DNA of 64,000 nt from Clostridia bacterium (GTDB lineage Bacteria > Bacillota > Clostridia > Oscillospirales > Acutalibacteraceae), in the NCBI GenBank assembly GCA_900770255.1, contig CAAGJN010000067.1, forward strand, positions 27,146 through 91,145. The letters are read 5' to 3'. The notes beneath the pieces are model-generated. The model searched no databases. It worked only from the letters and a program-made list of their open reading frames with translations, and was not told where the DNA came from. Shown piece by piece: positions 3,214 to 56,038 of the stretch. The stretch's first letter is position 1. Every line of letters begins with the position of its first letter. Made by a program: the position numbers and the translations under genes.

Positions 3214-6200
3214 TCAGTCGTCGTAGTCGTCAAGCTCGCCTTCGCTGTCGGAGAAGATGTCACCATCATAGTAATCATCGTCGCCCTCTGCTTCATCGGA
3301 GTAATCTTCATCGTCATCCTCATCATCGTCCTTATCGCCGACATTGAAGATGTCTCCCTCCTCGTTCTCGGTGCCGTAGCCGCCCGCTGTCTCAGCGTCG
3401 TTGACATGGGAGAACGCCTTATCGTCTGAGGGTGCAAAGCCGAGTTCCTCATCGGTCTGCTTGAGGTCGATCTCATCGCCGTTGGCGTCAAGAACGCTGA
3501 CGTCAAGGCAGAGCGACTGAAGCTCCTTGACAAGAACCTTGAACGACTCGGGAATACCGGGCTTGGGAACGTTGTTGCCCTTGACTATCGCCTCGTAGGT
3601 CTTGACACGGCCGACAACATCGTCGGATTTAACGGTCAGGATCTCCTGGAGGGTATAGGCAGCGCCGTAAGCCTCGAGAGCCCAGACTTCCATCTCACCG
3701 AAGCGCTGGCCGCCGAACTGAGCTTTACCGCCGAGGGGCTGCTGCGTGACAAGTGAGTACGGGCCGGTGGAACGTGCGTGAATCTTATCGTCAACAAGGT
3801 GGAACAGCTTGAGGTAATACATGACGCCGACGGTGACGGGGTTGTCAAACTGTCTGCCGGTACGTCCGTCATAGAGGATCGTCTTGCCGTCCTCTCTGAG
3901 GCCTGCCTGTCTGAGCGCTTCACGGATGTCTTCCTCGTGCGCGCCGTCAAAGACAGGCGTCTCAACCTTGTAACCCAGATGCTTTGCGGCAAAGCCGAGA
4001 TGGACCTCAAGCACCTGTCCGATATTCATTCGGGAGGGAACACCCAGGGGGTTGAGCACGATATCGAGCGGCGTGCCGTCCGGAAGGAAGGGCATATCCT
4101 CCTGTGAAAGTATTCTTGAAACAACACCCTTGTTGCCGTGGCGGCCCGCCATCTTATCGCCGACGGAAAGCTTACGCTTCTGAGCGATATAGCAGCGCAC
4201 TACCTTGTTGACACCGGGGGAGAGCTCGTCGCTGTTCTCGCGGGTGAACTCCTCGACCTTGACGACGATTCCGTATTCGCCGTGGGAGACCTTGAGGGAG
4301 GTATCTCTGACCTCCTTTGCCTTCTCGCCGAAGATCGCGCGAAGGAGCCGCTCCTCTGCGGTGAGCTCAGTCTCGCCCTTAGGGGTAACCTTACCGACGA
4401 GGATATCGCCGGAGTGAACCTCGGCGCCGACGCGGATGATGCCGCGCTCGTCAAGGTTGCTGAGAAGATCGTCGGAGACGTTCGGGATATCCCTTGTGAT
4501 CTCCTCGGGTCCGAGCTTTGTATCTCTGGCCTCGATCTCGTGCTTTTCGATGTGGATCGAGGTATAAACGTCGTCACGAACCATCTTTTCATTGATCAGA
4601 ACGGCGTCCTCGTAGTTGTAGCCCTCCCAGGTCATGAAGCCGACGAGGGCGTTCTTACCGAGGGAAATCTCGCCGTGATCGGTCGCGGGACCGTCCGCAA
4701 TGACATCGCCCTTCTCGACACGCTGGCCGAGGGAGACGATCGGACGCTGATTGACGCATGTGCCCTGGTTCGAGCGCATAAATTTAATTATATCGTAATG
4801 ATCGAGAACATTCTCATCGCTGATTATCTCAATCTGATCGGCGTCGACCTTGGTGACGCGGCCGGAGTGCTTCGCAAGCACGACAACGCCTGAGTCCACA
4901 GCCGCCTTATACTCCATACCGGTGCCGACGATCGGGCTCTCGGTCTTGAGCAGCGGCACAGCCTGCTTCTGCATGTTCGATCCCATGAGGGCTCGGTTAG
5001 CGTCGTCGTTCTCAAGGAACGGTATCATCGACGTCGCGACCGAAACGACCATCTTGGGCGAGACATCCATATAATCGACCTTCGTGCGGTCGATCTCAAG
5101 GAAACCGTCCCTGTGTCTGGCGTTGACTCTCTCATTGACAAACATACCGTTCTCGTCGAGCGGCTCGTTAGCCTGGGCGACGATATACTCGTCCTCAACG
5201 TCGGCGGTCATATACTCAACCTCGTCCGTGACGCGGCCCGTAGCCTTGTCGACCTTCCTGAACGGAGCCTCAATGAAGCCGTACTCATTTATGCGGGCGA
5301 ATGTCGCAAGGTAAGAGATAAGTCCGACGTTTGAACCTTCTGGAGTCTCAATGGGACACATTCTGCCGTAGTGGGAATAGTGGACGTCTCGGACTTCAAA
5401 GCCAGCACGATCCCTTGAAAGACCGCCGGGGCCGAGGGCCGAAAGGCGGCGCTTATGAGTAAGCTCCGAAAGCGGGTTGATCTGATCCATGAACTGCGAC
5501 AGCGGCGAAGAGCCGAAGAACTCCTTGATCGCCATCATGACAGGGCGGATGTTTATAAGAGCCTGAGGAGTGATATTCTCCTCCTTCTCCTGCGCCTGGA
5601 GGGTCATTCTCTCGCGGACGACTCTCTCCATTCTTGCAAGGCCGATCCTGAACTGGTTCTGGAGCAGCTCGCCCACGCAGCGGATACGTCTGTTGCCGAG
5701 GTGGTCGATATCGTCGGTGGTGCCAATCTTGTTTGCAAGGCAGTTAATATAGTTGATCGATGAGAAAATATCATCGACGATAATGTGATTGGGAATGAGC
5801 TCATCGTGGCGAAGTCTGAGCTGCTCGAGGAAAGTCTCCTTGTCGTCGCCGCACTCATCGGCGATCTCGGTGATAATCTGGAAACGAACCTTCTCGTTGA
5901 TACCGGCGTCAAGCAGTTCCTCCTTAGTCACGCCCTCGGGGACATAGTCCATGGGATCAACCATACCGTTTGAGATGATCTTGACGGGCTTTCCGTCAAC
6001 GTCGGCGACGGCGACCATAACGCCTGCGCGCTCGATCTCCCTGGCCTTGGCCTTGGTGACCACCTCGCCTGCCTCGGCGAGGACCTCGCCGGTCAGGGGC
6101 GCTACTACGGGCTCGGCAAGCTTGCAGCCTGCAAGACGGGCGGCAATAGCGAGCTTCTTATTATATTTGTATCTGCCGACGCGGGAGATATCATATCTGC

Positions 6201-7002
6201 GGGGATCGAAGAAGAGATTGTCAAGAAGCTGCTGAGCAGACTCGAGCGTTACGGGCTCGCCGGGACGAAGGCGCTTGAAAACTTCCATAAGAGCTTCGCC
6301 CTGATTCTTCGTCTCGTCTCTCTCAATAGTCGCCTCGATCCTCTCGTCATGGCCGAAGAACTCGCGGATCTCCTCATCCGTACCGAGTCCGAGGGCTCTG
6401 ATAAAGGTCGTGATGAATATCTTTCTGTTCTTATCTATCCTTACATAATAGACGTCGTTTATATCGGTTTCATACTCGAGCCATGCGCCGCGGTTGGGGT
6501 TGATGGTGCTCGAAAACAGCTCAATGCCGGTCTTATCGTGGGTCATATCGAAATATACGCCCGGCGAACGGACAAGCTGAGAGACAATAACTCTTTCGGC
6601 GCCATTGATGACAAAGGTACCGCTGTCGGTCATGATCGGGAATTCACCCATAAACACTTCCGACTCCTTAATCGCACCCGTCTCCTTATTGAGCAGACGC
6701 ACTGTGACGCGCATGGGTGCAGCATAGGTAGCATCGCGCTCCTTGCACTCTTGCACGGTGTGCTTAGTCTTCTCGTCAATACGGTAATCAATAAAGGTCA
6801 GCACCCAGTTGCCTGTGTAGTCGGTGATTTCCGCGATATCGCGGAACACCTCCTTGAGTCCGGTGTCGAGAAACCATTTGTAAGAGTTCTTCTGAACCTC
6901 AATGAGATTTGGCATCTCCATGACTTCTTCGATCTTGCCGAAGCTCACGCGCGTGGTCGTTCCTTTTTTGACGGGCTTAACATTCAGCATAGGCCAATTC
7001 AC
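3214..7002 (-). CDS. rpoB: DNA-directed RNA polymerase subunit beta, with an unusual poly-acidic C-terminal extension
   Basis: 1262-aa ORF containing conserved RpoB blocks (…[29 protein letters not shown]…, …[10 protein letters not shown]…). It lies directly upstream of rpoC. The last ~50 residues are almost entirely D/E/Y. Confidence 0.97.
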
Positions 7003-14073: not shown

Positions 14074-14895
14074 ATGAAAACGAAGTATATTTTTCTTGAC
14101 ATAGACGGTACGCTCGTCGATTTCACCGGCAGACTTGCAGACTCGGCGCTTGAGGCGCTCAGGGCGGCCAAGGCAAACGGGCATAAATTATTCGTCTGCA
14201 CAGGCAGACAGCGCTCGCAGGTCTATCCCTGGCTGCTTGAAAAGGTCGAGTTTGACGGCATGGTCGCCTCCTCCGGCGCGTACGCCATGGCTGAGGGCAA
14301 GTGCATCGTTCAGCACTGTTTCCCGCATGACTACATCGCCTTTCTCGCGGATTATTTCACGCGCAGCCGCACTCCATACTGCGTGCAGACCGAAAATATG
14401 CTGATGCTCGAGCAATGGAGCGCGGACGCTATCGTCTCACACTATGCAAAAGACGGAATCGACCGCAGTAAAATCGGCTCGCTATTCGGTATGACGAAGA
14501 TCGTTGACAATATTTGCGACCTGACGGTGGCCGAAAAGCTCATCTATTACGGGGCGCCCAAAGGGCTCGACGGCGTCGCGGCGGATCTTGGAGACAGGTT
14601 CAGCGTTGTGCGCTACAGCTTCGGCAACGCGGGCGACCGCTGCGGCGAGGTCACGGACAGTCGATACACAAAAGCTACCGGCATGGCCGAGATTCTCCAG
14701 TTTTTCGGCGCGCCGCAGAGCGACACAATTGCAGTCGGCGACGGCGACAATGATCTCGAGATGATGGAATACGCCGCATACGGGGTTGCGATGGGCAACG
14801 CTACGCCCGCGCTCAAGGCCGCCGTGGACATGGTAACCGACGACATCAACGCAGACGGGCTTTACAATGCGTTTAAAACGCTCGGAATTATCTGA
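14074..14895 (+). CDS. Cof-type HAD-IIB family hydrolase
   Basis: Motif I FLDIDGTL at the N-terminus, …VGDGDNDLEMM… motif IV, 273 aa. Confidence 0.85.
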   Translation: MKTKYIFLDIDGTLVDFTGRLADSALEALRAAKANGHKLFVCTGRQRSQVYPWLLEKVEFDGMVASSGAYAMAEGKCIVQHCFPHDYIAFLADYFTRSRTPYCVQTENMLMLEQWSADAIVSHYAKDGIDRSKIGSLFGMTKIVDNICDLTVAEKLIYYGAPKGLDGVAADLGDRFSVVRYSFGNAGDRCGEVTDSRYTKATGMAEILQFFGAPQSDTIAVGDGDNDLEMMEYAAYGVAMGNATPALKAAVDMVTDDINADGLYNAFKTLGII

Positions 14896-14905
14896 CCCGA
14901 TGTTT

Positions 14906-16342: not shown

Positions 16343-17620
16343 TCAGCCCGCTGTGCGATTGCTGCGGTGCGAGGGGTTGCGTTCGATGAGCGGAGGCACA
16401 CCGTTTATTACGCAGCCTGCAGTTATCGCGACGCGCTCTATCGTAGGATCTGACGGCACGTCATACATGACAGGATTGAGCACGGCTTCGATTATCGAAC
16501 GAAGTCCGCGCGCGCCGGTGCCCTTCTCGAGAGTCTTATCGGCTATCGCCTCAAGCGCGCCCATGTCGAAATCGAGCTCCACGCCGTCAAGCTCAAACAG
16601 AGCCTTATACTGCTTTGTTATAGCGTTCTTGGGCTCCGTGAGAATACGCACGAGAGCTTTCTTATCGAGCTCATCGAGCGAAGTGAGCACGGGAAGTCTG
16701 CCGACAAGCTCGGGGATTATTCCGAACTTTACGAGATCCTGATGCACGACCTGAGAGAGCAGATCGCTTTTCTTGAGCTCGCTCTTGCTCTTGACGTCGG
16801 CATTGAAACCGAGCGCCGAACCGCCTATGCGCTTTTCGATTATCTTATCGATGCCGTCGAAAGCTCCGCCGCAGATAAACAGGATATTCGAGGTATCAAC
16901 CTGGATAAACTCCTGCTGCGGGTGCTTTCTGCCGCCCTGCGGAGGCACGTTTGCTACCGTACCCTCGATAATCTTGAGCAGAGCCTGCTGAACACCCTCA
17001 CCGCTGACGTCTCTTGTTATCGACGGGTTTTCCGACTTTCTCGCGATCTTGTCGATCTCATCGACATAGATTATGCCGCGCTCTGCGCGCTCTATATCGT
17101 AGTCGGCGGCCTGGATTATTCTGAGCAGAATGTTCTCGACATCCTCGCCGACATAGCCCGCCTCTGTCAGGGTCGTGGCGTCTGCAATGGCAAAGGGCAC
17201 GTCAAGTATCTTCGCAAGGGTCTGCGCGAGCATCGTCTTGCCCACGCCGGTCGGACCCATGAGAATAATGTTGCTCTTCTGTATCTCAACATCCGCGTTC
17301 TTTACGCTGTTTATTCTTTTATAGTGGTTATAAACCGCGACACTGAGCGTTTTTTTCGCCTCATCCTGGCCTATAACATACTCGTCAAGCTTCTCCTTGA
17401 TCTCATGGGGCTTCGGCAGCGGCTTGTCATTCGGACGCTGCTGATTTTTGCGGCGCGAGGAGCGTTTCTCATCATCCTCGATTATATTAAGGCACTGCTC
17501 CACGCACTCGTTGCAGATGTATACCCCCGGACCGGCGATGAGCTTTTCTACCTGATCCTGTGTTTTCTGGCAAAAAGAACAGCGAACTGTTCTTTCCCTT
17601 TTATCATCATCTCGCGGCAT
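16343..17620 (-). CDS. clpX: ATP-dependent Clp protease ATP-binding subunit ClpX
   Basis: N-terminal zinc-binding CSFCQK…CNEC, Walker A GPTGVGKT, 425 aa. Confidence 0.97.
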
Positions 17621-17633
17621 GTCAGCCCTCCGA

Positions 17634-18215
17634 TTATCTCTTGTAAATTATTTTATCTGCAAGTCCGTATTCGACGGCCTCCTCAGCGGTGAGGAAATTG
17701 TCGCGCTCGGTCTCGCGCTCAACAAACTCGATCGGTTTGCCCATATTCTCAGCTAAAATTCTGTTAAGTCTCTCTCTGGTCTTGATAATGTGGTCAGCGG
17801 CGATCTTGATCTCGGTCGCCTGACCCTGTGCGCCGCCGAGCGGCTGATGGATCATGACCTCGCTGTTGGGTAGCACAAGACGCTTGCCTTTTGCGCCGGC
17901 GGCAAACAGGAACGCGCCCATTGAAGCCGCCATGCCCATGCAGATGGTCGAAACATCGCATTTGATGAACTGCATCGTGTCGTATATCGCGAGACCTGCG
18001 GTAACTGAACCGCCGGGGCTGTTGATATACAGGCTGATATCCTTCTCGGCATCCTGACCCTCAAGGAAAAGAAGCTGCGCTACTACTACGCTGGCTGTAG
18101 CGTCGTTTATCTCATCGGAGAGCACGATTATTCTGTCGCTGAGCAGACGAGAAAAGATGTCGTATGAACGCTCGCCTCGGTTAGTCTGTTCGACGACGTA
18201 AGGTACTAATGCCAT
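17634..18215 (-). CDS. clpP: ATP-dependent Clp protease proteolytic subunit ClpP
   Basis: …[24 protein letters not shown]…[11 protein letters not shown]… catalytic Ser/His region, 193 aa, immediately upstream of clpX. Confidence 0.97.
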
Positions 18216-18336
18216 TACTTTTTCCTCCTTTTTAAGTCCCGTTTCAGGGATACAGGCACTCTGCCGTATACTGCGCCCGCCCGGCGGATACCGGACGGGA
18301 ACAATACGGATTAATTATAGTGTTCTTGCGTTAAAA

Positions 18337-19887
18337 TTATTCAGCGTCTTCCGCTTTCTTCTTGGCGGGAGCCTTCTTTGCCGGAGCTTTTTTAGCGGCG
18401 GCCTTCGTCTCTCCCTCGGCCTCGTCCTTAGCGGCAGCCTTCTTTGCCGGAGCCTTCTTGGCTGCGGGCTTCTTCTCTTCCTCGGCCTTGTCCTTGGCGG
18501 CGGTTTTCTTTGCCGGGGCCTTCTTGGCTGCGGACTTCTTCTCTCCGTCGGCCTCGTCCTTAGCGGCGGTCTTCTTTGCCGGAGCCTTCTTCGCCGTCTT
18601 CTTGCCGGGTTTTACGGCCTTGGCATTGTCAACGACGAACTTGACAACCTTCTCCTTGAGCAGATCGGCCTTGAGCAGATTCTCTGCAATAAGGCTCTTG
18701 ATCTTCTCGACCTCCATGCCGTACATCTCGGCGAGCTTCTTGAACTCCTCGTCAAGCTCCTCGGCGCTGACTTCGATCTTCTCATCAGCGGCGATCTTAT
18801 CGAGCGCAAGGCCGAGCTTAACCTGGGAGACAGCCTGCTCGCGCATGGACTTTCTGAAAGTATCCTTGTCAGTACCCATATAGCTCAGGTAGGTATCGAT
18901 GTCGATGCCCTGCTGCGAAAGTCTCTGAGCGAAATTATTTATGTTTTCGTCGGTCTGAGTCTCGAACATGACCTCGGGGATCTCAGCATCAAGGTTGGAG
19001 ACGAGCTCCTCCATAAGCTTGCCCTCGAACTCCTTCTCGGCATCGGACTGCTTATGCTCGAGCAGATCGGCCTCAATGCCCTTCTTGAGCTCGTCAACGG
19101 TATCATAGTCAAGATCCTTTGCAAACTCGTCATCAAGCTCGGGCAGCTCCTTGACCTTTATCTCATGGAGAGTGACCTTGAATGTGGCGTCCTTGCCGGC
19201 AAGCTCGGGAGTATACTCCTCGCGGAACTTGACGTTGACGTCAAACTCGTCGCCCGCGTTGTGGCCGATAACCTGATCCTCAAAGCCGGGGATGAACTGA
19301 CCCGAACCGAGCTCAAGCTCATAGCCGGAGCCCTTGCCGCCCTCGAAAGCCTCGCCGTCAACAAAACCCTCAAAGTCAATGACGGAGATATCGCCCTTCT
19401 GAGCGGCTCTGCCCTCGACGGTTATAGTTCTTGCGTTGCGCTCTCTCATATCGGCAATGCGCGCGTCAACCTCCTCGGGAGTGACGGAAACTTCCGCTTT
19501 CTCAGCCTCGAGGCCCTTATAAGCCTTGACCTTGACATCGTCGGGCTTGGTGGTGACTTTGAGCTCAAAGAGCACGCCGTCCTCGCCTATGGACTTAACA
19601 TCGACATCCTTCGGGCTGTCAACAGGCTCGATGCCGGCCTCTTTGTAAGCCTCGGAAACCGCCTCCGGGAATACAATCTCAAAAGCATCCTCATAGAAGA
19701 CGTCCTTGCCGTAAAATCTCTCGATCATAGCGAGCGGAGCCTTACCCTTGCGGAAACCGGGAAGAGCGATCTTGTTCTTGGCCTTGTTGTAGGCCTTGAT
19801 AACAGCCGCTTTGAAAGGCTCTGCGCCGATCTCGATCTCCAGCGTATAGACGTTGGTGTCAGTTTTGTTTGATGATTTTAAACTCAT
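18337..19887 (-). CDS. tig: Trigger factor with a ~85-aa Lys/Ala-rich repetitive C-terminal extension
   Basis: N-terminal ribosome-binding motif GFRKGKAP, a PPIase domain, and the tig-clpP-clpX gene order. At 516 aa it exceeds the usual ~430 aa because of the tail AAKKAPAKKTAAKDEADGEKK x3. Confidence 0.92.
   Translation of the reverse strand: MSLKSSNKTDTNVYTLEIEIGAEPFKAAVIKAYNKAKNKIALPGFRKGKAPLAMIERFYGKDVFYEDAFEIVFPEAVSEAYKEAGIEPVDSPKDVDVKSIGEDGVLFELKVTTKPDDVKVKAYKGLEAEKAEVSVTPEEVDARIADMRERNARTITVEGRAAQKGDISVIDFEGFVDGEAFEGGKGSGYELELGSGQFIPGFEDQVIGHNAGDEFDVNVKFREEYTPELAGKDATFKVTLHEIKVKELPELDDEFAKDLDYDTVDELKKGIEADLLEHKQSDAEKEFEGKLMEELVSNLDAEIPEVMFETQTDENINNFAQRLSQQGIDIDTYLSYMGTDKDTFRKSMREQAVSQVKLGLALDKIAADEKIEVSAEELDEEFKKLAEMYGMEVEKIKSLIAENLLKADLLKEKVVKFVVDNAKAVKPGKKTAKKAPAKKTAAKDEADGEKKSAAKKAPAKKTAAKDKAEEEKKPAAKKAPAKKAAAKDEAEGETKAAAKKAPAKKAPAKKKAEDAE
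18361..18600. repeat. Three tandem ~60-bp GC-rich repeats encoding the KA-rich trigger-factor tail
   Basis: Read on the plus strand: cttctttgccggagccttcttggctgcgg[g/a]cttcttctc…ctcggcct[tg/cg]tcct[tgg/tag]cggc… recurs with ~60-nt period. Confidence 0.7.
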
Positions 19888-29710: not shown

Positions 29711-29870
29711 TCCTTATTAAGAGCGGCTGAGGGAACAGGCCCCATGAAGCCCGGCAACCTGGTATTATACCAAGGTGCTAAATCCTGCGGTGCAGACCGG
29801 AAGATAAGGCCGGCGGCGGAGAGATCCGTTTCGCCCATGAGTGCTTAGCGGTTGCGCCGAGCGCTTTTTT
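29711..29870 (+). promoter_or_regulatory. SAM-I (S-box) riboswitch with a terminator-type expression platform upstream of metK
   Basis: tccttattaagagcggctgagggaacaggccccatgaagcccggcaacc…ggtgctaaatcctgcgg…ggaagataagg matches the S-box P1-P4 consensus (kink-turn GA, CCCGGCAACC, GGUGCUAAAUCC). A hairpin and tttttttatt run (29845-29870) precede the metK RBS. Confidence 0.85.
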
Positions 29871-29892: not shown

Positions 29893-31041
29893 ATGGCTAA
29901 CTACTTTTTCACATCCGAATCCGTAACGGGAGGACATCCCGACAAAATCTGCGACCAGATCTCAGACGCCGTTCTCGACGCGATACTCGCCGAGGATAAG
30001 AACGGCAGGGTCGCCTGCGAGTGCTGCTGCACAACAGGTATGGTTATGATCATGGGCGAAATAACGACTACGAGCAAGGTCGATATCCCCGCCATAGCCC
30101 GCCAGGTCATCTGCGATATCGGCTACGACAGCCCCGAAAAGGGCTTCGACGGCCACACCTGCGCCATACTCACAACTATCGACAAGCAGTCGCCCGACAT
30201 CGCGCTCGGCGTTGACAGACAGGGCGCGGGAGATCAGGGTATGATGTTCGGCTTCGCGTGCCGCGAGACGCCCGAGCTTATGCCTCTGCCGATATCGCTC
30301 GCACATAAGCTTGCAGCGCAGCTTACAAAAGTACGCGCCGACGGCACTCTTCCCTACCTCAGACCCGACGGAAAAACTCAGGTCACCGTCGAATACACCG
30401 AGGACGGCAAGCCCGTCAGGATCGACGCCGTCGTCATATCCTCGCAGCACTCGGCTTCGATCGAGATCGAGACGCTCCGCCGCGACATAGAGAAGCATGT
30501 CATCCGCGAGATCATTCCCGCAGATATGATGGACGAGAACACGAAGATATTCATCAACCCGACCGGGCGATTTGTGACCGGCGGTCCGCAGGGTGACAGC
30601 GGCCTTACAGGCAGAAAGATCATCGTTGACACCTACGGCGGATATTCGCGCCACGGCGGCGGCGCCTTCTCAGGCAAAGATCCGACAAAGGTCGACCGCT
30701 CGGCGGCATATGCCGCGAGATATATGGCGAAGAACATCGTTGCCGCAGGCCTTGCCGACAAGTGCGAGGTTCAGATAGCCTACGCGATCGGTATTGAGGA
30801 GCCCGTCTCGGTTTTCGTTGACAGCTTCGGCACCGGCATAATCCCCGACTCGGAGATCGCCGCGGCCGCAAACAAGGTCTTTGACCTGCGCCCCGCTTCG
30901 ATAATCAGGGATCTCGATCTTCGCCGCCCGATCTACCGCCAGATAGCGGCCCTCGGCCATGTCGGCAGAACAGACATCGATCTGACCTGGGAGCACACCG
31001 ACAGGGTCGGCGCGCTCAAGGAGGCCGCGGGCATAAAGTAA
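29893..31041 (+). CDS. metK: S-adenosylmethionine synthetase
   Basis: [30 protein letters not shown]… and [16 protein letters not shown]. Confidence 0.97.
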
Positions 31042-51796: not shown

Positions 51797-52195
51797 TTAT
51801 CTCTTGGAGAACTGGGGTGCACGGCGAGCGCCCTTGAGACCGTATTTCTTTCTCTCGGTCATTCTCGGATCTCTGGTCAGGAAGCCTGCCTTCTTGAGCG
51901 CGGGGCGGAGCTCCGCATCATACTGAAGGAGCGCTCTGGAGATACCGTGACGGATAGCGCCGGCCTGGCCGGTGACGCCGCCGCCGTTGACGCGGCAGAT
52001 GACGTCGAGCTTTTCACCCGTGCCGGTGAGTTCGAGAGGCTGGCGGACAATGAGCTTGAGAGTCTCAAGTCCGAAATAATCGTCTATATCTCTGTCGTTG
52101 ATGATGATTTTGCCGGTGCCGGCGTAAAGACGGACTCTGGCAACTGATTTCTTTCTGCGGCCTGTGCCGTAGAAGTAAGGAACTGAATCGTACAT
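51797..52195 (-). CDS. rpsI: 30S ribosomal protein S9
   Basis: …[13 protein letters not shown]… and …[26 protein letters not shown]. Confidence 0.97.
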
Positions 52196-52214
52196 TATTT
52201 ATTGCCTCCCTTCA

Positions 52215-52643
52215 TTAAAGCGCCCACTCTTCGGGCTTCTGTGCCTCATGCTTATGCTCCGCGCCTCTGTAAACGCGAAGTCTGGTCAGAGCTGTGCGGC
52301 CCAGCGTGTTGTCGGGCAGCATACCCTTGACTGCAAGCTCAACTGCGAACTCGGGCTTAGTCTTCATGAGGGTGCTGTACTTGACCTCTTTCATGTTGCC
52401 GATATAACCGGTATGATGATAATACATCTTCTGGTTGAGCTTGTTGCCGGTGAGAACGGCTTTCTCAGCGTTAATGATGATGACATGATCACCGCAGTCA
52501 GCGTTGGGGGTGAAGGTGGGCTTATGCTTGCCGCGAAGAAGGACGGCAGCCTGAACTGCTACCTTGCCGAGAGGCTTACCGGCAGCATCGATGACATACC
52601 ACTTACGGGTGATGTCGCCCGCTTTGGGCATATAAGTTGACAT
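52215..52643 (-). CDS. rplM: 50S ribosomal protein L13
   Basis: …[16 protein letters not shown]… and …[10 protein letters not shown]…. Confidence 0.97.
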
Positions 52644-52895: not shown

Positions 52896-53108
52896 ATGAA
52901 AAAAGAAGAAATTAAGCGCATGAACGACCTCTATCACCTCTCGCAGGAAAGAAGCCTGAGCGAGGACGAATACAACGAGTGGTCGGATCTCAAACAGAAA
53001 TACATCGCCGACTTCAAGGCGAGCCTGACAGGTCAGCTCGACAACACCTACATCATTGACGAGAAGGGCAACAAGCACAAGCTTCAGAGAAAGGCAGACT
53101 CAAAATAA
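52896..53108 (+). CDS. DUF896 (UPF0291) family small protein
   Basis: 70 aa. …EEIKRMNDLYHLSQERSLSEDEYNEWSDLKQKYIADFKASLTGQLDN… matches the YnzC-like family pattern. Confidence 0.75.
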   Translation: MKKEEIKRMNDLYHLSQERSLSEDEYNEWSDLKQKYIADFKASLTGQLDNTYIIDEKGNKHKLQRKADSK

Positions 53109-53819
53109 ATGCAGAAATTTCTCAGTCTCGTGCGCTGCGCCGTTGACAAATACTCCATGATCGAGGAGGGCGACCGCATAGCAGTCGGGCTCTCCGGCGG
53201 CAAAGACTCCGTCGCGCTGCTCACGGCTTTGGCCGAGCTGCGCAGGTTCTATCCGAAAAACTTCTCGGTGACGGCGATAACCCTTGACCCGCGCTTTGAC
53301 GGGAACAATACCGACTATTCCGAGCTTGAGGAGCTCTGCCGCCGCCTCAATATACCTTATATAATAAAGCGTACCGATCTCGGCAACATAATATTCAACC
53401 TGCGCAAAGAGAAGAACCCGTGCAGCCTGTGCGCCCGCATGCGGCGCGGCTCTCTGCACGACGCGGCAAAGGCCGCAGGGTGCAACAAAATTGCCCTGGG
53501 TCACCACATGGACGACGCCGCCGAGACGTTCATGATGAACCTTCTAAACGGCGGCACGATCGGCTCATTCAAGCCGATCACCTACCTGTCACGCAAAGAT
53601 ATTTACATGATAAGGCCGATGATTCTGGCGCGTGAGAGCGACACCGTGCGCGTTGTTCGTAAGCTTCAGCTGCCGGTTGTCAAAAGCAAATGTCCTGCCG
53701 ACGGCTCGACCGAGCGGCAGGAGGTCAAGGAGCTGCTCGCCTCTCTGGGCAAAAAATACGGCGAACTTCCGCCGAAGATAATCGGCGCGATGCAGCGCGG
53801 AGACATCAGCGGCTATTAA
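53109..53819 (+). CDS. PP-loop ATPase, TtcA-like tRNA 2-thiocytidine synthetase family
   Basis: SGGKDS PP-loop, plus conserved cysteines (…CSLCAR…, …KSKCP…). Confidence 0.8.
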   Translation: MQKFLSLVRCAVDKYSMIEEGDRIAVGLSGGKDSVALLTALAELRRFYPKNFSVTAITLDPRFDGNNTDYSELEELCRRLNIPYIIKRTDLGNIIFNLRKEKNPCSLCARMRRGSLHDAAKAAGCNKIALGHHMDDAAETFMMNLLNGGTIGSFKPITYLSRKDIYMIRPMILARESDTVRVVRKLQLPVVKSKCPADGSTERQEVKELLASLGKKYGELPPKIIGAMQRGDISGY

Positions 53820-53837
53820 AGTGAAAGAGTGATATAT

Positions 53838-54380
53838 ATGTTTTGCAGAAAATGCGGAAAGCAGCTCGACGAGAGCTTCAAAGTCTGCCCCTACTGCGGC
53901 GAACCCGTCAATCTCAAGGAGAGCGACGAGCTGCACGCAGCCCAGAAGGACCCCCTGCCGGTCTATGATCCGCCCGATCCGTCATCGGTACATAACAGCG
54001 CGCCGAAGCCCGAGCCGGAGCTTGTCCACCGGCAGCAGCCGGGCGCCGGCTCCGCGCAGGACGAAAATGTCGGCGGCTGGAAATGCCTCGGATTCTTCCT
54101 CGGCTTCTTTGCGCCGCTGCTGTGGTTTCTGCCGCTCGTCAGCCTCGTGCTCTATATCATCTGGAAGAGCGACCGGCCGAAGATGGCAAAAGCCATCGGT
54201 CAGTTCACTCTCGTCGGACTCGCGGCCGGTCTCGGGCTCGTGATAATCATCGCCGTTATCATCGGCATCATTCTCGCGATCACCGCATCAATGACTCTTT
54301 TTGAGATGCTCCGCGATTTTGCCAACGGCACGCTGAGAAGCGCCGACGACCTCTTGGAGTTGCTCCCGTTCATCAATTAA
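53838..54380 (+). CDS. Zinc-ribbon domain membrane protein
   Basis: N-terminal CRKCG…CPYCG zinc ribbon, a Pro-rich linker, then two or three hydrophobic helices. Confidence 0.6.
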   Translation: MFCRKCGKQLDESFKVCPYCGEPVNLKESDELHAAQKDPLPVYDPPDPSSVHNSAPKPEPELVHRQQPGAGSAQDENVGGWKCLGFFLGFFAPLLWFLPLVSLVLYIIWKSDRPKMAKAIGQFTLVGLAAGLGLVIIIAVIIGIILAITASMTLFEMLRDFANGTLRSADDLLELLPFIN

Positions 54381-54388
54381 AAAAAGTG

Positions 54389-54433
54389 AAACCGCCCCGA
54401 TTTTCCCTTCAAAAAATCAGGGCGGTTTTTTTG
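54389..54433. terminator. Terminator after the zinc-ribbon membrane gene
   Basis: aaaccgccccgatttt…aaaatcagggcggttttttt. Confidence 0.65.
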
Positions 54434-54530
54434 TTTATCTTTTTGCATATATGCAGTAATATTCACTATTTTTTCATATTTTTTGTGTTGCTATTCGCCC
54501 TGAGCATTGTAAAGTCTTTTTCCTTGCAGA

Positions 54531-54675
54531 TGTGGAAAACCATGTGGATAATGTGGATAACTCAGGTGTTTTAATCGCTATTTAGAACAATAACGTAAAG
54601 AAATTAACTTTACATATTATTTTTAATGATTGTTCAGAAATATAACGTTTCATTGTATATACAAGATGTGGAAAA
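54531..54675 (+). promoter_or_regulatory. Cluster of same-orientation DnaA boxes in an AT-rich intergenic region
   Basis: Two perfect head-to-tail TGTGGATAA boxes (54543-54551, 54552-54560), plus TGTGGAAAA at 54531-54539 and at 54667-54675 (one mismatch each). Confidence 0.5.
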
Positions 54676-54684
54676 AGCAGAGAG

Positions 54685-54724
54685 AAAAACGCGACTGCAA
54701 GAAAACTTGCAGCCGCGTTTTTAT
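54685..54724. terminator. Terminator downstream of metY
   Basis: aaaaacgcgactgcaag-aaaa-cttgcagccgcgttttt (one mismatch). Confidence 0.6.
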
Positions 54725-54763
54725 GCATAAAATTTTAGCTCTGTTTTTTGTCTATTTTGCTAC

Positions 54764-56038
54764 TCAGACGTTCTCGAGAGCCGCGTCGAGATCTGCGATT
54801 ATATCCTCAACATTTTCCGTTCCGATAGAGAGGCGAACGAGATTTTCATACACTCCGCAGTCCTCAAGCTCCTGCGCTGTGAGCTGGCGGTGGGTCGTGC
54901 TCGCGGGATGCAAACAGCAGGTGCGGCTGTCCGCAACATGGGTAGCGATAGTGGCGAGTTTCAGGCTGTCCATAAACCTGACCGCGTCCTCTCTGCCGCC
55001 CTTTATCCTCAGCGAGATAACGCCGCAGGTGCCGTTGGGCATGTATTTCTGGGCGAGGTCATAATATTTGTCGCCCTTGAGACCGGGATAGCATACGGAC
55101 TCTATCTTGGGATGCTTAGAGAGAAATTCGGCAACTTTCAGCGCGTTTGAGCAATGGCGCTCCATACGCAGATGCAGCGTCTCAAGACCGATATTGAGCA
55201 AAAATGCGTTCTGCGGCGATTGGATTGAACCCAGGTCGCGCATAAGCTGGGTAGTGCACTTCGTTATATATGCGGCCTTGCCAAACTGCTCGGTATAAAC
55301 TACGCCGTGATAGGAGTCGTCGGGAGTGGTGAGACCCGGGAACTTATCGTTCTGCGTCCAGTCAAAATTTCCGCTGTCAACGATAACTCCGCCTACGCTT
55401 GTAGCGTGGCCGTCCATATATTTTGTAGTTGAATGGGTCACGATATCTGCGCCGAACTCGAACGGACGGCAGTTTATCGGGGTCGGGAAAGTGTTGTCAA
55501 CGATAAGCGGCACGCCGTGGGCATGCGCGGCTCTCGCGTACTTTTCAATATCGAGCACGACAAGCGATGGGTTCGATACCGTCTCGGCAAAAACCGCCTT
55601 TGTGTTCTCTCTAAACGCGGCGTTGAGCTCCTCCTCGGTCGCGTCCGGACGGACAAAGGTAAACTCAATGCCCAGCTTGCGCATGGTCACGTTGAAAAGA
55701 TTAAAGGTTCCGCCGTAGATCGCCGAAGCCGAGACGACGTGATCGCCCGCCGAACAGATATTGAATACCGAGAAGAAGGAAGCCGCCTGTCCGGAGGATG
55801 TGAGCATCGCGCCCACACCGCCCTCAAGGTCGGCTATCTTGGCGGCGACGCAGTCGTTCGTCGGGTTCTGAAGCCGCGTGTAGAAATAACCGGACTCCTG
55901 AAGATCAAAGAGCCTGCCCATCTGCTCACTCGATTCATATTTGAAGGTCGTGCTCTGAACTATCGGCAGCACCCGGGGCTCTCCGTTTTTAGGAGTATAG
56001 CCTGACTGCACGCATTTTGTCTCGATATGAAAACTCAT
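54764..56038 (-). CDS. metY: O-acetylhomoserine aminocarboxypropyltransferase (sulfhydrylase)
   Basis: 424 aa PLP enzyme. …ETKCVQSGY…, …HSTTKYMDGH… (PLP-Lys). Cys/Met-metabolism family. Confidence 0.9.
   Translation of the reverse strand: MSFHIETKCVQSGYTPKNGEPRVLPIVQSTTFKYESSEQMGRLFDLQESGYFYTRLQNPTNDCVAAKIADLEGGVGAMLTSSGQAASFFSVFNICSAGDHVVSASAIYGGTFNLFNVTMRKLGIEFTFVRPDATEEELNAAFRENTKAVFAETVSNPSLVVLDIEKYARAAHAHGVPLIVDNTFPTPINCRPFEFGADIVTHSTTKYMDGHATSVGGVIVDSGNFDWTQNDKFPGLTTPDDSYHGVVYTEQFGKAAYITKCTTQLMRDLGSIQSPQNAFLLNIGLETLHLRMERHCSNALKVAEFLSKHPKIESVCYPGLKGDKYYDLAQKYMPNGTCGVISLRIKGGREDAVRFMDSLKLATIATHVADSRTCCLHPASTTHRQLTAQELEDCGVYENLVRLSIGTENVEDIIADLDAALENV

What the first reader, a model, noticed from the sequence alone, without database searches (positions are those of the whole stretch)
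54440..54760. Extra-origin DnaA-box cluster in an AT-rich convergent intergenic region
The 384-bp gap between two converging genes is flanked by two terminators. Its ~260-bp AT-rich core holds two perfect tandem DnaA boxes (TGTGGATAATGTGGATAA) and two one-mismatch boxes (TGTGGAAAA), all in the same orientation. No dnaA or dnaN gene is in the window, so this is not oriC. It could be a DnaA-titration or regulatory cluster like B. subtilis DBCs or E. coli datA. It could also host a DnaA-regulated promoter or a small RNA sitting between the terminators.
Basis: seen in the sequence. Interest (0 to 1): 0.55.

Follow-up and report, generated by a model that had tools for sequence, protein, structure and literature searches.

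The report
Conserved orphan DnaA-box cluster outside oriC
A short non-coding gap between two converging genes carries three to four binding sites for the replication initiator DnaA; they are far too clustered for chance and are kept almost unchanged in all 15 related gut-bacterial loci found, so this is a real extra-origin DnaA site of a known kind, possibly gating a small RNA.

Summary
The 383-bp gap (54381-54763) is 24-35% GC against about 53% background and lies between two covariation-supported terminators. It holds two abutting perfect DnaA boxes (54543-54560) and two one-mismatch boxes (54531, 54667), all in one orientation. These are the only perfect boxes in the 64 kb.

Chance is excluded. 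All 15 syntenic loci recovered (14 distinct gap sequences from one clade; flanking enzyme at least 93% identical) keep the invariant block ATGTGGATAACTATGTGGATAATGTGGATAAC, which is three perfect boxes. The rest of the gap has drifted to 55-72% identity. The window's box 1 is a degraded copy. Its fourth box is a window-specific 12-nt duplication. One relative has expanded to five boxes.

It is not an origin. There is no GC-skew switch, no DnaA-trios and no dnaA, and rpoB, tig-clpP-clpX and rplM-rpsI all lie on the minus strand. No Rfam family, conserved small ORF or dif site is present.

The boxes overlap a conserved promoter-like pair (TTGCnn-17-GATAAT) that points at the right-hand terminator. 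My best reading is a DnaA-bound site that gates a roughly 150-165-nt transcript. A purely DNA-level DnaA sink is the close rival. Neither DnaA binding nor transcription has been tested.

The parts
54389..54433 (.). Left terminator T1. It ends the zinc-ribbon gene transcript (stem 54389-54404 / 54413-54428, then a T-run). In the minus direction it is followed only by TTTCACTTTTT, so it is weaker that way.
   Evidence: Compensatory pair changes in relatives at alignment columns 20/56, 24/52 and 27/49.
54434..54508 (.). AT-rich left arm. It has TGCATA/TGAATA-type short repeats. In the relatives there are four ATATTCA copies spaced 10-11 bp apart; the window keeps the palindrome TGCATATATGCA (54445-54456) and one ATATTCA. 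Function unknown.
   Evidence: spacing read directly from the sequences.
54509..54529 (+). Invariant block GTAAAG..TCCTTGC. Its TTGCAG (54524-54529) is the candidate -35 hexamer of an internal plus-strand promoter.
   Evidence: Conservation 0.92-0.93. TTGCnn lies exactly 17 nt upstream of GATAAT in 12 of 13 sequences; the 13th has an insertion there.
54531..54539 (+). DnaA box 1, TGTGGAAAA. One mismatch in the window; perfect TGTGGATAA in all relatives.
54543..54551 (+). DnaA box 2, perfect TGTGGATAA. GATAAT at 54547-54552 is the candidate -10 hexamer.
   Evidence: Invariant in all 14 distinct gap sequences.
54552..54560 (+). DnaA box 3, perfect TGTGGATAA, directly abutting box 2. The inferred transcription start lies at about 54559-54561.
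   Evidence: Invariant. The start site is inferred from the -10 position, not measured.
54569..54648 (.). Two copies of a roughly 28-nt direct repeat, 52 nt apart (54569-54596 and 54621-54648). The equivalent pair GTTTTRAT..AGAAWTAT is also visible in the relatives.
   Evidence: (family D2) and the alignment.
54595..54613 (.). Invariant inverted repeat GTAAAG-N7-CTTTAC. The loop sequence varies but its length is fixed. It is either a small hairpin or a dimeric protein site. In the relatives it overlaps a minus-strand promoter-like pair (TGTAAA-17-TATATT) that is not intact in the window.
   Evidence: The stem never varies, so it gives no covariation evidence either way.
54637..54664 (.). Conserved blocks GAAATAT (54637-54643) and the palindrome TTGTATATACAA (54653-54664; GCATATRCA in the relatives).
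54667..54675 (+). DnaA box 4, TGTGGAAAA. Window-specific. It lies inside an exact 12-nt duplicate (54664-54675) of 54528-54539.
   Evidence: (family D6); absent from all relatives.
54685..54724 (.). Right terminator T2. It is bidirectional. It ends metY on the minus strand, and it would end any plus-strand transcript that starts in the gap, because the T-run after the stem is invariant.
   Evidence: Compensatory changes at columns 322-325 / 344-348.
54718..54760 (.). Two invariant blocks between T2 and the metY stop codon: the palindrome TTTTTATGCATAAAATTTT (54718-54736) and TTTTTTGTCTATTTTGC (54744-54760). Unexplained.
   Evidence: Conservation 0.98; alignments.

Best explanation
The gap is a conserved, terminator-insulated, non-coding DnaA-binding locus outside the replication origin. 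Three head-to-tail consensus DnaA boxes, spaced 12 and 9 bp apart, should bind DnaA with high affinity and co-operatively.

Both neighbouring genes end at the gap. The only transcription DnaA could control here is therefore a unit inside it. The boxes cover the spacer, the -10 hexamer and the predicted start site of a conserved sigma-A-like promoter: -35 TTGCAG at 54524-54529, 17 nt, -10 GATAAT at 54547-54552. That promoter points at the right-hand terminator.

I propose that DnaA occupancy gates, most simply represses, a non-coding transcript of about 165 nt in the window (150 nt in the relatives), running from about 54560 to 54724. The locus would then report the cell's initiator level. It would also hold a few DnaA molecules as a side effect.

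What is shown: the boxes, their non-random clustering, their conservation, the terminators, the conserved hexamers and their spacing. What is inferred: DnaA binding, promoter activity, the existence of the transcript and the direction of regulation.

My confidence that this is a functional DnaA-binding cluster of some kind is about 0.8. My confidence in the specific promoter/transcript mechanism is about 0.4.
For: - Clustering is far beyond chance.
- All 15 syntenic loci from one clade keep three perfect boxes in the same order, spacing and orientation. Box-block identity is 88-100% while the rest of the inter-terminator DNA is 55-72% identical.
- Box number changes only by gain: a 12-nt duplication in the window and a 47-nt insertion giving five boxes in L083.
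- TTGC lies exactly 17 nt upstream of GATAAT in 12 of 13 sequences. The invariant TCCTTGC block is not explained by the DnaA-box consensus.
- The plus-direction T-run of the right terminator is invariant, although the left terminator already stops the upstream gene.
- Three boxes are few for a stoichiometric sink. datA has five boxes plus an IHF site (PMC5295017). [quoted passage not shown]
- DnaA is an established transcription factor at such clusters in B. subtilis, for example at sda, ywlC, yydA and dnaA (PMC3245932, PMC4447404).
Against: - There are no expression or binding data.
- The -35 hexamer is weak (3-4 of 6 matches). The -10 hexamer is part of the DnaA boxes, so its conservation is not independent evidence.
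- The interior of the proposed RNA shows no compensatory base pairs. It folds no better than shuffled sequence (z = -0.64).
- No Rfam family matches.
- Interior conservation is in short sequence blocks and DNA-level repeats, which fits protein-binding DNA at least as well as an RNA.
- A second, opposite promoter-like pair is conserved in the relatives but not in the window, so the transcription direction is not settled.
Confidence: 0.4

Rival explanations
1. It is a purely DNA-level DnaA regulatory site with no transcript. It would be a small DnaA sink, or a site that assembles a DnaA oligomer and changes its activity, in the manner of B. subtilis DnaA-box clusters or E. coli datA. The other conserved blocks (GTAAAG-N7-CTTTAC, GAAATAT, GCATATRCA, the phased ATATTCA repeats) would be sites for accessory DNA-binding proteins. 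The terminators would keep transcription from dislodging the complex.
For: - The conservation and clustering evidence is the same as for the best explanation.
- Interior conservation is at sequence level, with direct and inverted DNA repeats and no RNA covariation.
- Terminators on both sides insulate the site.
- Extra-origin clusters that delay initiation are documented in B. subtilis and E. coli (PMC3245932, PMC5295017).
- Gain of extra boxes in two lineages fits selection on box number.
Against: - Only three conserved boxes can hold very little DnaA. An effect would need a catalytic mechanism such as datA-dependent ATP hydrolysis, which in E. coli needs IHF. From general knowledge, Firmicutes lack IHF.
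- Distance from oriC is unknown. The B. subtilis clusters are mostly origin-proximal (PMC3245932).
- It does not explain the invariant TTGC at promoter spacing or the invariant plus-direction T-run of the right terminator.
Confidence: 0.3
2. The repeated TGTGGATAA motif is bound by a protein other than DnaA, or the gap is a conserved regulatory or structural DNA element in which the match to the DnaA consensus is incidental.
For: - Several other invariant motifs of unknown function share the gap.
- No binding data exist.
- The array is in frame (spacings 12 and 9) and reads as a Trp-rich micro-ORF, MWITMWIMWIT, with a conserved stop codon.
Against: - Three exact 9-of-9 matches to the DnaA consensus, kept invariant, with new copies again matching it at 8 of 9.
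- The same abutting pair occurs next to textbook DnaA-trio arrays in other contigs, so it is a genuine DnaA module elsewhere.
- The micro-ORF has no ribosome-binding site, its tail shows non-synonymous substitutions, and it has no downstream gene to regulate.
Confidence: 0.1
3. The gap is a replication origin: the clade's relocated oriC, a secondary origin, or a fossil origin of an integrated element.
For: - It combines an AT-rich region, same-orientation DnaA boxes, short phased repeats and terminator insulation.
- A very similar layout is seen in Butyrivibrio phage Bo-Finn: a convergent, terminator-flanked gap with DnaA-box arrays around iterons.
- No dnaA lies in the window, so the true origin has not been located.
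Against: - GC skew is the same on both sides in the window (-0.027 / -0.025) and does not turn positive to the right in L171 or L001.
- rpoB, tig-clpP-clpX and rplM-rpsI all lie on the minus strand, consistent with one fork direction across the window.
- Genes converge on the gap rather than diverging from it.
- No DnaA-trio run lies within 80 nt on the correct side of the boxes, whereas control sequences give 2-6. The lenient NAN criterion of PMC8287927 is met only inside the box array itself.
- The most AT-rich segment lies on the wrong side of the boxes.
- No rep gene is nearby, and there is no plasmid similarity.
Confidence: 0.05

Closest known systems
[quoted passage not shown]
   Same: It is an intergenic cluster of consensus DnaA boxes outside oriC in a Firmicute. 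In B. subtilis, DnaA at such sites acts as a transcription factor and, collectively, as a brake on initiation. Both roles are candidates here.
   Different: Several B. subtilis clusters sit upstream of genes that DnaA regulates. This one lies downstream of both neighbours, between two terminators, so any regulated unit must be inside the gap. It has only three conserved boxes. Its distance from oriC is unknown. Binding and phenotype are untested. These clusters are not a homologous family, so the resemblance is functional only.
Escherichia coli datA (PMC5295017)
   Same: It is a non-origin locus of high-affinity DnaA boxes whose function does not depend on regulating a neighbouring gene.
   Different: datA spans about 1 kb, has five boxes and needs IHF to promote DnaA-ATP hydrolysis. 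Here there are three abutting boxes within 30 bp and no recognisable IHF requirement.
Escherichia coli DARS1 and DARS2
   Same: Both have a core of three DnaA boxes at a non-origin site.
   Different: From memory, and not checked in a paper here: the DARS core depends on boxes in opposed orientation to promote ADP release. All boxes here point the same way.
Origin 'basal unwinding system' (tandem DnaA boxes plus DnaA-trios; PMC8287927)
   Same: Boxes 2 and 3 form the same abutting tandem pair, TGTGGATAATGTGGATAAC, that sits next to trio arrays in several IMG/VR contigs.
   Different: No trios, no skew switch and no adjacent dnaA.
CcnA of Caulobacter crescentus (PMC8959179)
   Same: A short non-coding RNA gene lying among initiator-binding sites and tied to cell-cycle control. 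It is the nearest precedent for the small-RNA reading.
   Different: ccnA lies inside the origin and is thought to be driven by CtrA, not DnaA. It has no sequence or structural relation to this locus.

Membership tests
Extra-origin DnaA-box cluster (B. subtilis DBC type) | Several consensus DnaA boxes clustered in an intergenic region outside oriC | tested here: met
   There are three boxes within 30 bp (two perfect and one with a single mismatch; all three perfect in the relatives), plus a window-specific fourth. The locus is not at a skew switch and is not next to dnaA.
Extra-origin DnaA-box cluster (B. subtilis DBC type) | Stable DnaA binding in vivo or in vitro (ChIP, IDAP-seq) | not testable with these tools
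   This needs DnaA ChIP-seq or footprinting. The only indirect evidence is selective conservation.
Extra-origin DnaA-box cluster (B. subtilis DBC type) | Boxes lie upstream of a neighbouring gene whose transcription DnaA modulates (true of some members) | tested here: not met
   Both neighbours end at the gap, and each is closed by a terminator. Only an internal promoter candidate exists.
Extra-origin DnaA-box cluster (B. subtilis DBC type) | Proximity to oriC, and early initiation when the cluster is deleted | not testable with these tools
   The origin is not in the 64-kb window, and no complete genome of the clade could be reached.
E. coli datA | Five high-affinity boxes over about 1 kb, with an essential IHF site that promotes DnaA-ATP hydrolysis | tested here: not met
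   There are three conserved boxes within 30 bp. IHF dependence cannot be assessed.
Chromosomal origin with basal unwinding system | At least three DnaA-trios (middle A) within 16 bp of a DnaA box, on the 5' side of a TGTGGATAA-oriented box | tested here: not met
   The longest run is one triplet within 80 nt upstream in all 14 gap sequences, against 2-6 in control sequences. The lenient NAN test is met only inside the box array itself.
Chromosomal origin with basal unwinding system | GC-skew sign change, genes diverging from the site, and an adjacent dnaA or dnaN | tested here: not met
   Skew is -0.027 to the left and -0.025 to the right. The flanking genes converge. No DnaA motifs occur in any of the six frames.
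Any described RNA family (Rfam 15) | Covariance-model match at the gathering score | tested here: not met
   There is no hit in the gap at the gathering threshold. At E up to 10, only matches far below the gathering scores appear, mostly overlapping the two terminators.
dif (XerCD chromosome dimer resolution site) | A 28-bp site resembling B. subtilis or E. coli dif | tested here: not met
   The best 28-mers in the window have 10 or more mismatches, and none lies in the gap.
Type I toxin-antitoxin or other small-protein gene | A conserved small ORF with a ribosome-binding site | tested here: not met
   No ORF of 10 or more codons is conserved across all lineages with a ribosome-binding site. 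Pfam finds nothing for the 62-aa and 48-aa ORFs.

The most novel reading that the evidence does not exclude
The gap encodes a previously undescribed small RNA whose promoter is built out of DnaA boxes, so its level reads out the amount or ATP-state of the replication initiator. That would give this clade of uncultured gut Clostridia a post-transcriptional output of the replication-initiation cycle. The other invariant motifs in the gap would then be the RNA's functional segments or further operator sites.
Probability: 0.3. Interest if true: 0.6.

Novelty: new member of a known kind. Interest (0 to 1): 0.4.

Why it matters
Extra-origin DnaA sites are known in detail only from a few model organisms such as E. 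coli and B. subtilis. There they tune initiation timing and link replication to gene expression.

This locus is a clean, minimal example from an uncultured gut Clostridia clade. It has three consensus boxes, is insulated by terminators, has no neighbouring gene to regulate, and is held under clear selection. That makes it a compact test case for two questions. What can so few DnaA boxes do away from an origin? Does DnaA control non-coding RNAs?

If a DnaA-gated transcript is confirmed, it would be a new type of output of the initiator. If not, the locus is one more DnaA-box cluster and of modest interest.

Tried and rejected
1. Chance occurrence. Rejected by window shuffles and by a 20-Mb Markov simulation with the gap's own composition.
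2. oriC or a secondary origin. No skew switch, converging genes, consistently minus-strand housekeeping genes, no DnaA-trios and no dnaA.
3. dif site. Block B looked a little like B. subtilis dif, but no 28-mer comes closer than 10 mismatches.
4. Known RNA family. None at the gathering score or at a permissive threshold.
5. Structured RNA. Compensatory pairs occur only in the two terminators. The interior folds like shuffled sequence on both strands.
6. Small protein, type I toxin or leader peptide. No conserved ORF with a ribosome-binding site. The Trp-rich reading of the box array has no downstream gene.
7. Plasmid or phage remnant. No plasmid match. Phage matches cover only the 35-nt box block.
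8. Wider conservation. Relatives with 70-78% metY identity lack the synteny. None of the 14 whose metY-downstream region I read (L002-L009, L085-L090) has a box cluster there.
9. Locating the clade's dnaA/oriC to measure the distance.
10. A suggested pairing between the TCCTTGC block and the right terminator's 5' arm (pair I9). By eye it is not conserved in the relatives.

Full report
**What is in the sequence**

The gap between the zinc-ribbon membrane protein gene (53829-54380, +) and the PLP-dependent Cys/Met-metabolism gene (O-acetylhomoserine sulfhydrylase-like, called metY here; 54764-56038, -) is 383 bp, 54381-54763. GC falls to 24-35% against about 53% in the window.

Perfect DnaA boxes TGTGGATAA lie at 54543-54551 and 54552-54560. 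They abut each other and are the only perfect boxes on either strand of the 64 kb, where shuffles predict 0.17. One-mismatch boxes TGTGGAAAA lie at 54531-54539 and 54667-54675, in the same orientation. A 20-Mb Markov chain built from the gap's own AT-rich dinucleotide content gives 0.003 perfect boxes per 383 nt and not one same-strand pair within 40 nt.

Hairpin-plus-T-run terminators sit at 54389-54433 and 54685-54724.

**Relatives**

Scans of the genome and metagenome collections with metY, and look-ups of homologues of the fast-evolving zinc-ribbon protein (53-63% identical), gave 15 loci with the same arrangement: DUF896, zinc-ribbon gene, gap, then metY and apgM converging. These loci yield 14 distinct gap sequences.

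All belong to one clade with metY at least 93% identical. The window is the most divergent member. The next closest metY loci (75-78% identity) are labelled Acutalibacteraceae, Ruminococcaceae or simply Clostridia. In the 14 of these whose metY-downstream region I read (L002-L009 and L085-L090), the synteny is absent and there is no box cluster.

Every syntenic locus has a 380-392-nt gap (about 429 nt in L083, which carries a 47-nt insertion) at 32-38% GC. Every one contains the block ATGTGGATAACTATGTGGATAATGTGGATAAC, which is three perfect boxes spaced 12 and 9 bp apart.

**Conservation pattern**

The box block is the best conserved part of the gap, with a column conservation of 0.93-1.0. Between lineages it is 88-100% identical, while the rest of the inter-terminator DNA is 55-72% identical.

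The window's box 1 is a degraded copy (T to A). Its fourth box exists nowhere else and sits in an exact 12-nt duplicate of 54528-54539. One relative, L083, carries a 47-nt insertion that raises the count to five boxes. Box number therefore changes only by gain. This is the pattern expected of selection on DnaA binding.

**Other parts of the gap**

Compensatory base changes among the relatives are confined to the two terminators. This confirms the terminators and gives no support for a structured RNA between them. The interior folds no better than shuffled sequence on either strand (z = -0.64 and -0.77).

No Rfam family matches. No small ORF with a ribosome-binding site is conserved.

The interior nevertheless holds several invariant short blocks:
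- GTAAAG..TCCTTGC, just upstream of box 1.
- The inverted repeat GTAAAG-N7-CTTTAC.
- GAAATAT.
- GCATATRCA.
- A roughly 28-nt direct repeat with copies 52 nt apart.
- In the relatives, four ATATTCA copies spaced 10-11 bp apart.
- Two invariant blocks between the right terminator and the metY stop codon.

I cannot explain these blocks.

**Why it is not an origin**

- GC skew is -0.027 to the left of the gap and -0.025 to the right. It does not turn positive to the right in L171 or L001 either.
- rpoB, tig-clpP-clpX and rplM-rpsI all lie on the minus strand. Together with the negative skew, this indicates one fork direction across the whole window.
- The flanking genes converge on the gap.
- No DnaA signature motif occurs in any of the six frames.
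- The orientation rule for origin unwinding modules is that DnaA-trios lie 5' of TGTGGATAA-oriented boxes. I confirmed this on IMG/VR contigs that carry the same abutting pair. On that side, no gap sequence has more than one trio-like triplet within 80 nt, against 2-6 in control sequences. The lenient criterion of PMC8287927 is met only inside the box array itself.

A dif site is also excluded.

**Mechanism**

Both neighbouring genes end here and each is closed by its own terminator. DnaA bound at the boxes therefore cannot regulate them in the usual way. Two readings remain.

Reading (a): the boxes are the operator of an internal promoter. A scan of the aligned gaps finds one pair conserved in essentially all sequences: TTGCnn, 17 nt, GATAAT. 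In the window these are 54524-54529 and 54547-54552. The boxes cover its spacer, its -10 hexamer and its predicted start site. It points at the right-hand terminator, whose plus-direction T-run is invariant. The predicted product is a non-coding transcript of about 165 nt in the window and 150 nt in the relatives. The invariant TTGC is not explained by the DnaA consensus. Three boxes are a natural number for an operator and a small number for a sink.

Reading (b): it is a DNA-level DnaA site with accessory protein sites, like the B. subtilis clusters or datA (PMC3245932, PMC5295017). The sequence-level conservation, the DNA repeats and the lack of RNA covariation favour this reading.

I rank (a) slightly ahead, at 0.4 against 0.3. 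The two are not exclusive. That the locus is a functional DnaA-binding cluster of some kind I put at about 0.8.

**Comparison with known systems and novelty**

Functionally the locus belongs with extra-origin DnaA-box clusters, which is a known kind. It differs from the B. subtilis examples in three ways. It lies downstream of both neighbours, it is insulated by terminators, and it has only three conserved boxes. It fails the defining features of datA (five boxes, IHF) and of origins. From memory, it also fails the opposed-box layout of DARS.

I rate it a new member of a known kind. It is of moderate interest. The interest would rise if a DnaA-gated small RNA were shown.

Noticed in passing
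window 29711-29810 (+), upstream of 29893-31041: A SAM riboswitch (RF00162, 79.7 bits) lies directly upstream of the S-adenosylmethionine synthetase gene. This is an ordinary arrangement.
   Followed up: partly
window 53109-53819 (+): A PP-loop ATPase gene (PF01171) sits between the DUF896 gene and the zinc-ribbon gene in the window. It is absent from that position in all ten syntenic relatives recovered through zinc-ribbon homologues, where the two genes are adjacent. This looks like a lineage-specific insertion next to the conserved block.
   Followed up: no
window 54718-54760: Two invariant blocks lie between the right terminator and the metY stop codon: the palindrome TTTTTATGCATAAAATTTT and TTTTTTGTCTATTTTGC. 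They are as conserved as the DnaA boxes (0.98). TGCATA-type half-sites recur through the gap. Their function is unknown.
   Followed up: partly
window 54595-54613 and 54509-54514: GTAAAG-N7-CTTTAC is an invariant inverted repeat with a variable loop of fixed length. A third GTAAAG lies about 20 nt upstream of box 1, so the motif brackets the DnaA boxes. In the window the perfect form occurs only here. It could be a protein operator or a hairpin.
   Followed up: partly
window 54530-54575 and homologues: Box spacings of 12 and 9 nt keep the array in one reading frame. It reads as a Trp-rich micro-ORF (MWITMWIMWIT...) with a stop codon at the same alignment column in all sequences. It has no ribosome-binding site and no downstream gene, so I treat it as a by-product of the box sequence.
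   Followed up: yes
L083:4471-4547 (relative; metagenome contig OKSO01000799.1): A 47-nt insertion inside the box array raises the count to five boxes: three perfect, plus TGGGGATAA and TGTGGATAG. This shows that box number turns over by local duplication.
   Followed up: partly
IMG/VR loci L174-L250 (for example L194:4051, L201, L221, L244, L210): The exact abutting pair TGTGGATAATGTGGATAAC occurs in 77 viral contigs. In several it is directly preceded by a DnaA-trio array and a GC cluster (TAGTAGTAGTAATAGGTCC), which is the textbook origin-unwinding layout. Twenty-one contigs share one conserved context. These may be phage origins or mis-binned chromosomal origins.
   Followed up: partly
L251:2120-2600 (Butyrivibrio virus Bo-Finn, MN882552.2 about 14430-14900): A terminator-flanked gap between converging phage genes holds two same-orientation DnaA-box arrays on either side of five roughly 22-nt iterons (CATTCCAAAATACAACATGTAAA). 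It looks like an unannotated replication origin. Its overall layout resembles the window's gap.
   Followed up: partly
window 3214-7002, 16343-19887, 51797-52643 (all on the minus strand): rpoB, clpX-clpP-tig and rplM-rpsI all lie on the minus strand, and plus-strand GC skew is negative throughout. This implies that replication crosses the whole window from right to left, so the origin lies beyond the right edge.
   Followed up: partly
window 52896-54380: The genes that always accompany the gap on the left are a DUF896 protein and a zinc-ribbon membrane protein. From memory, the B. subtilis DUF896 member YnzC sits in the SOS-induced yneA cell-division-inhibitor operon. A link between this pair and a replication-status signal would be worth checking.
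   Followed up: no
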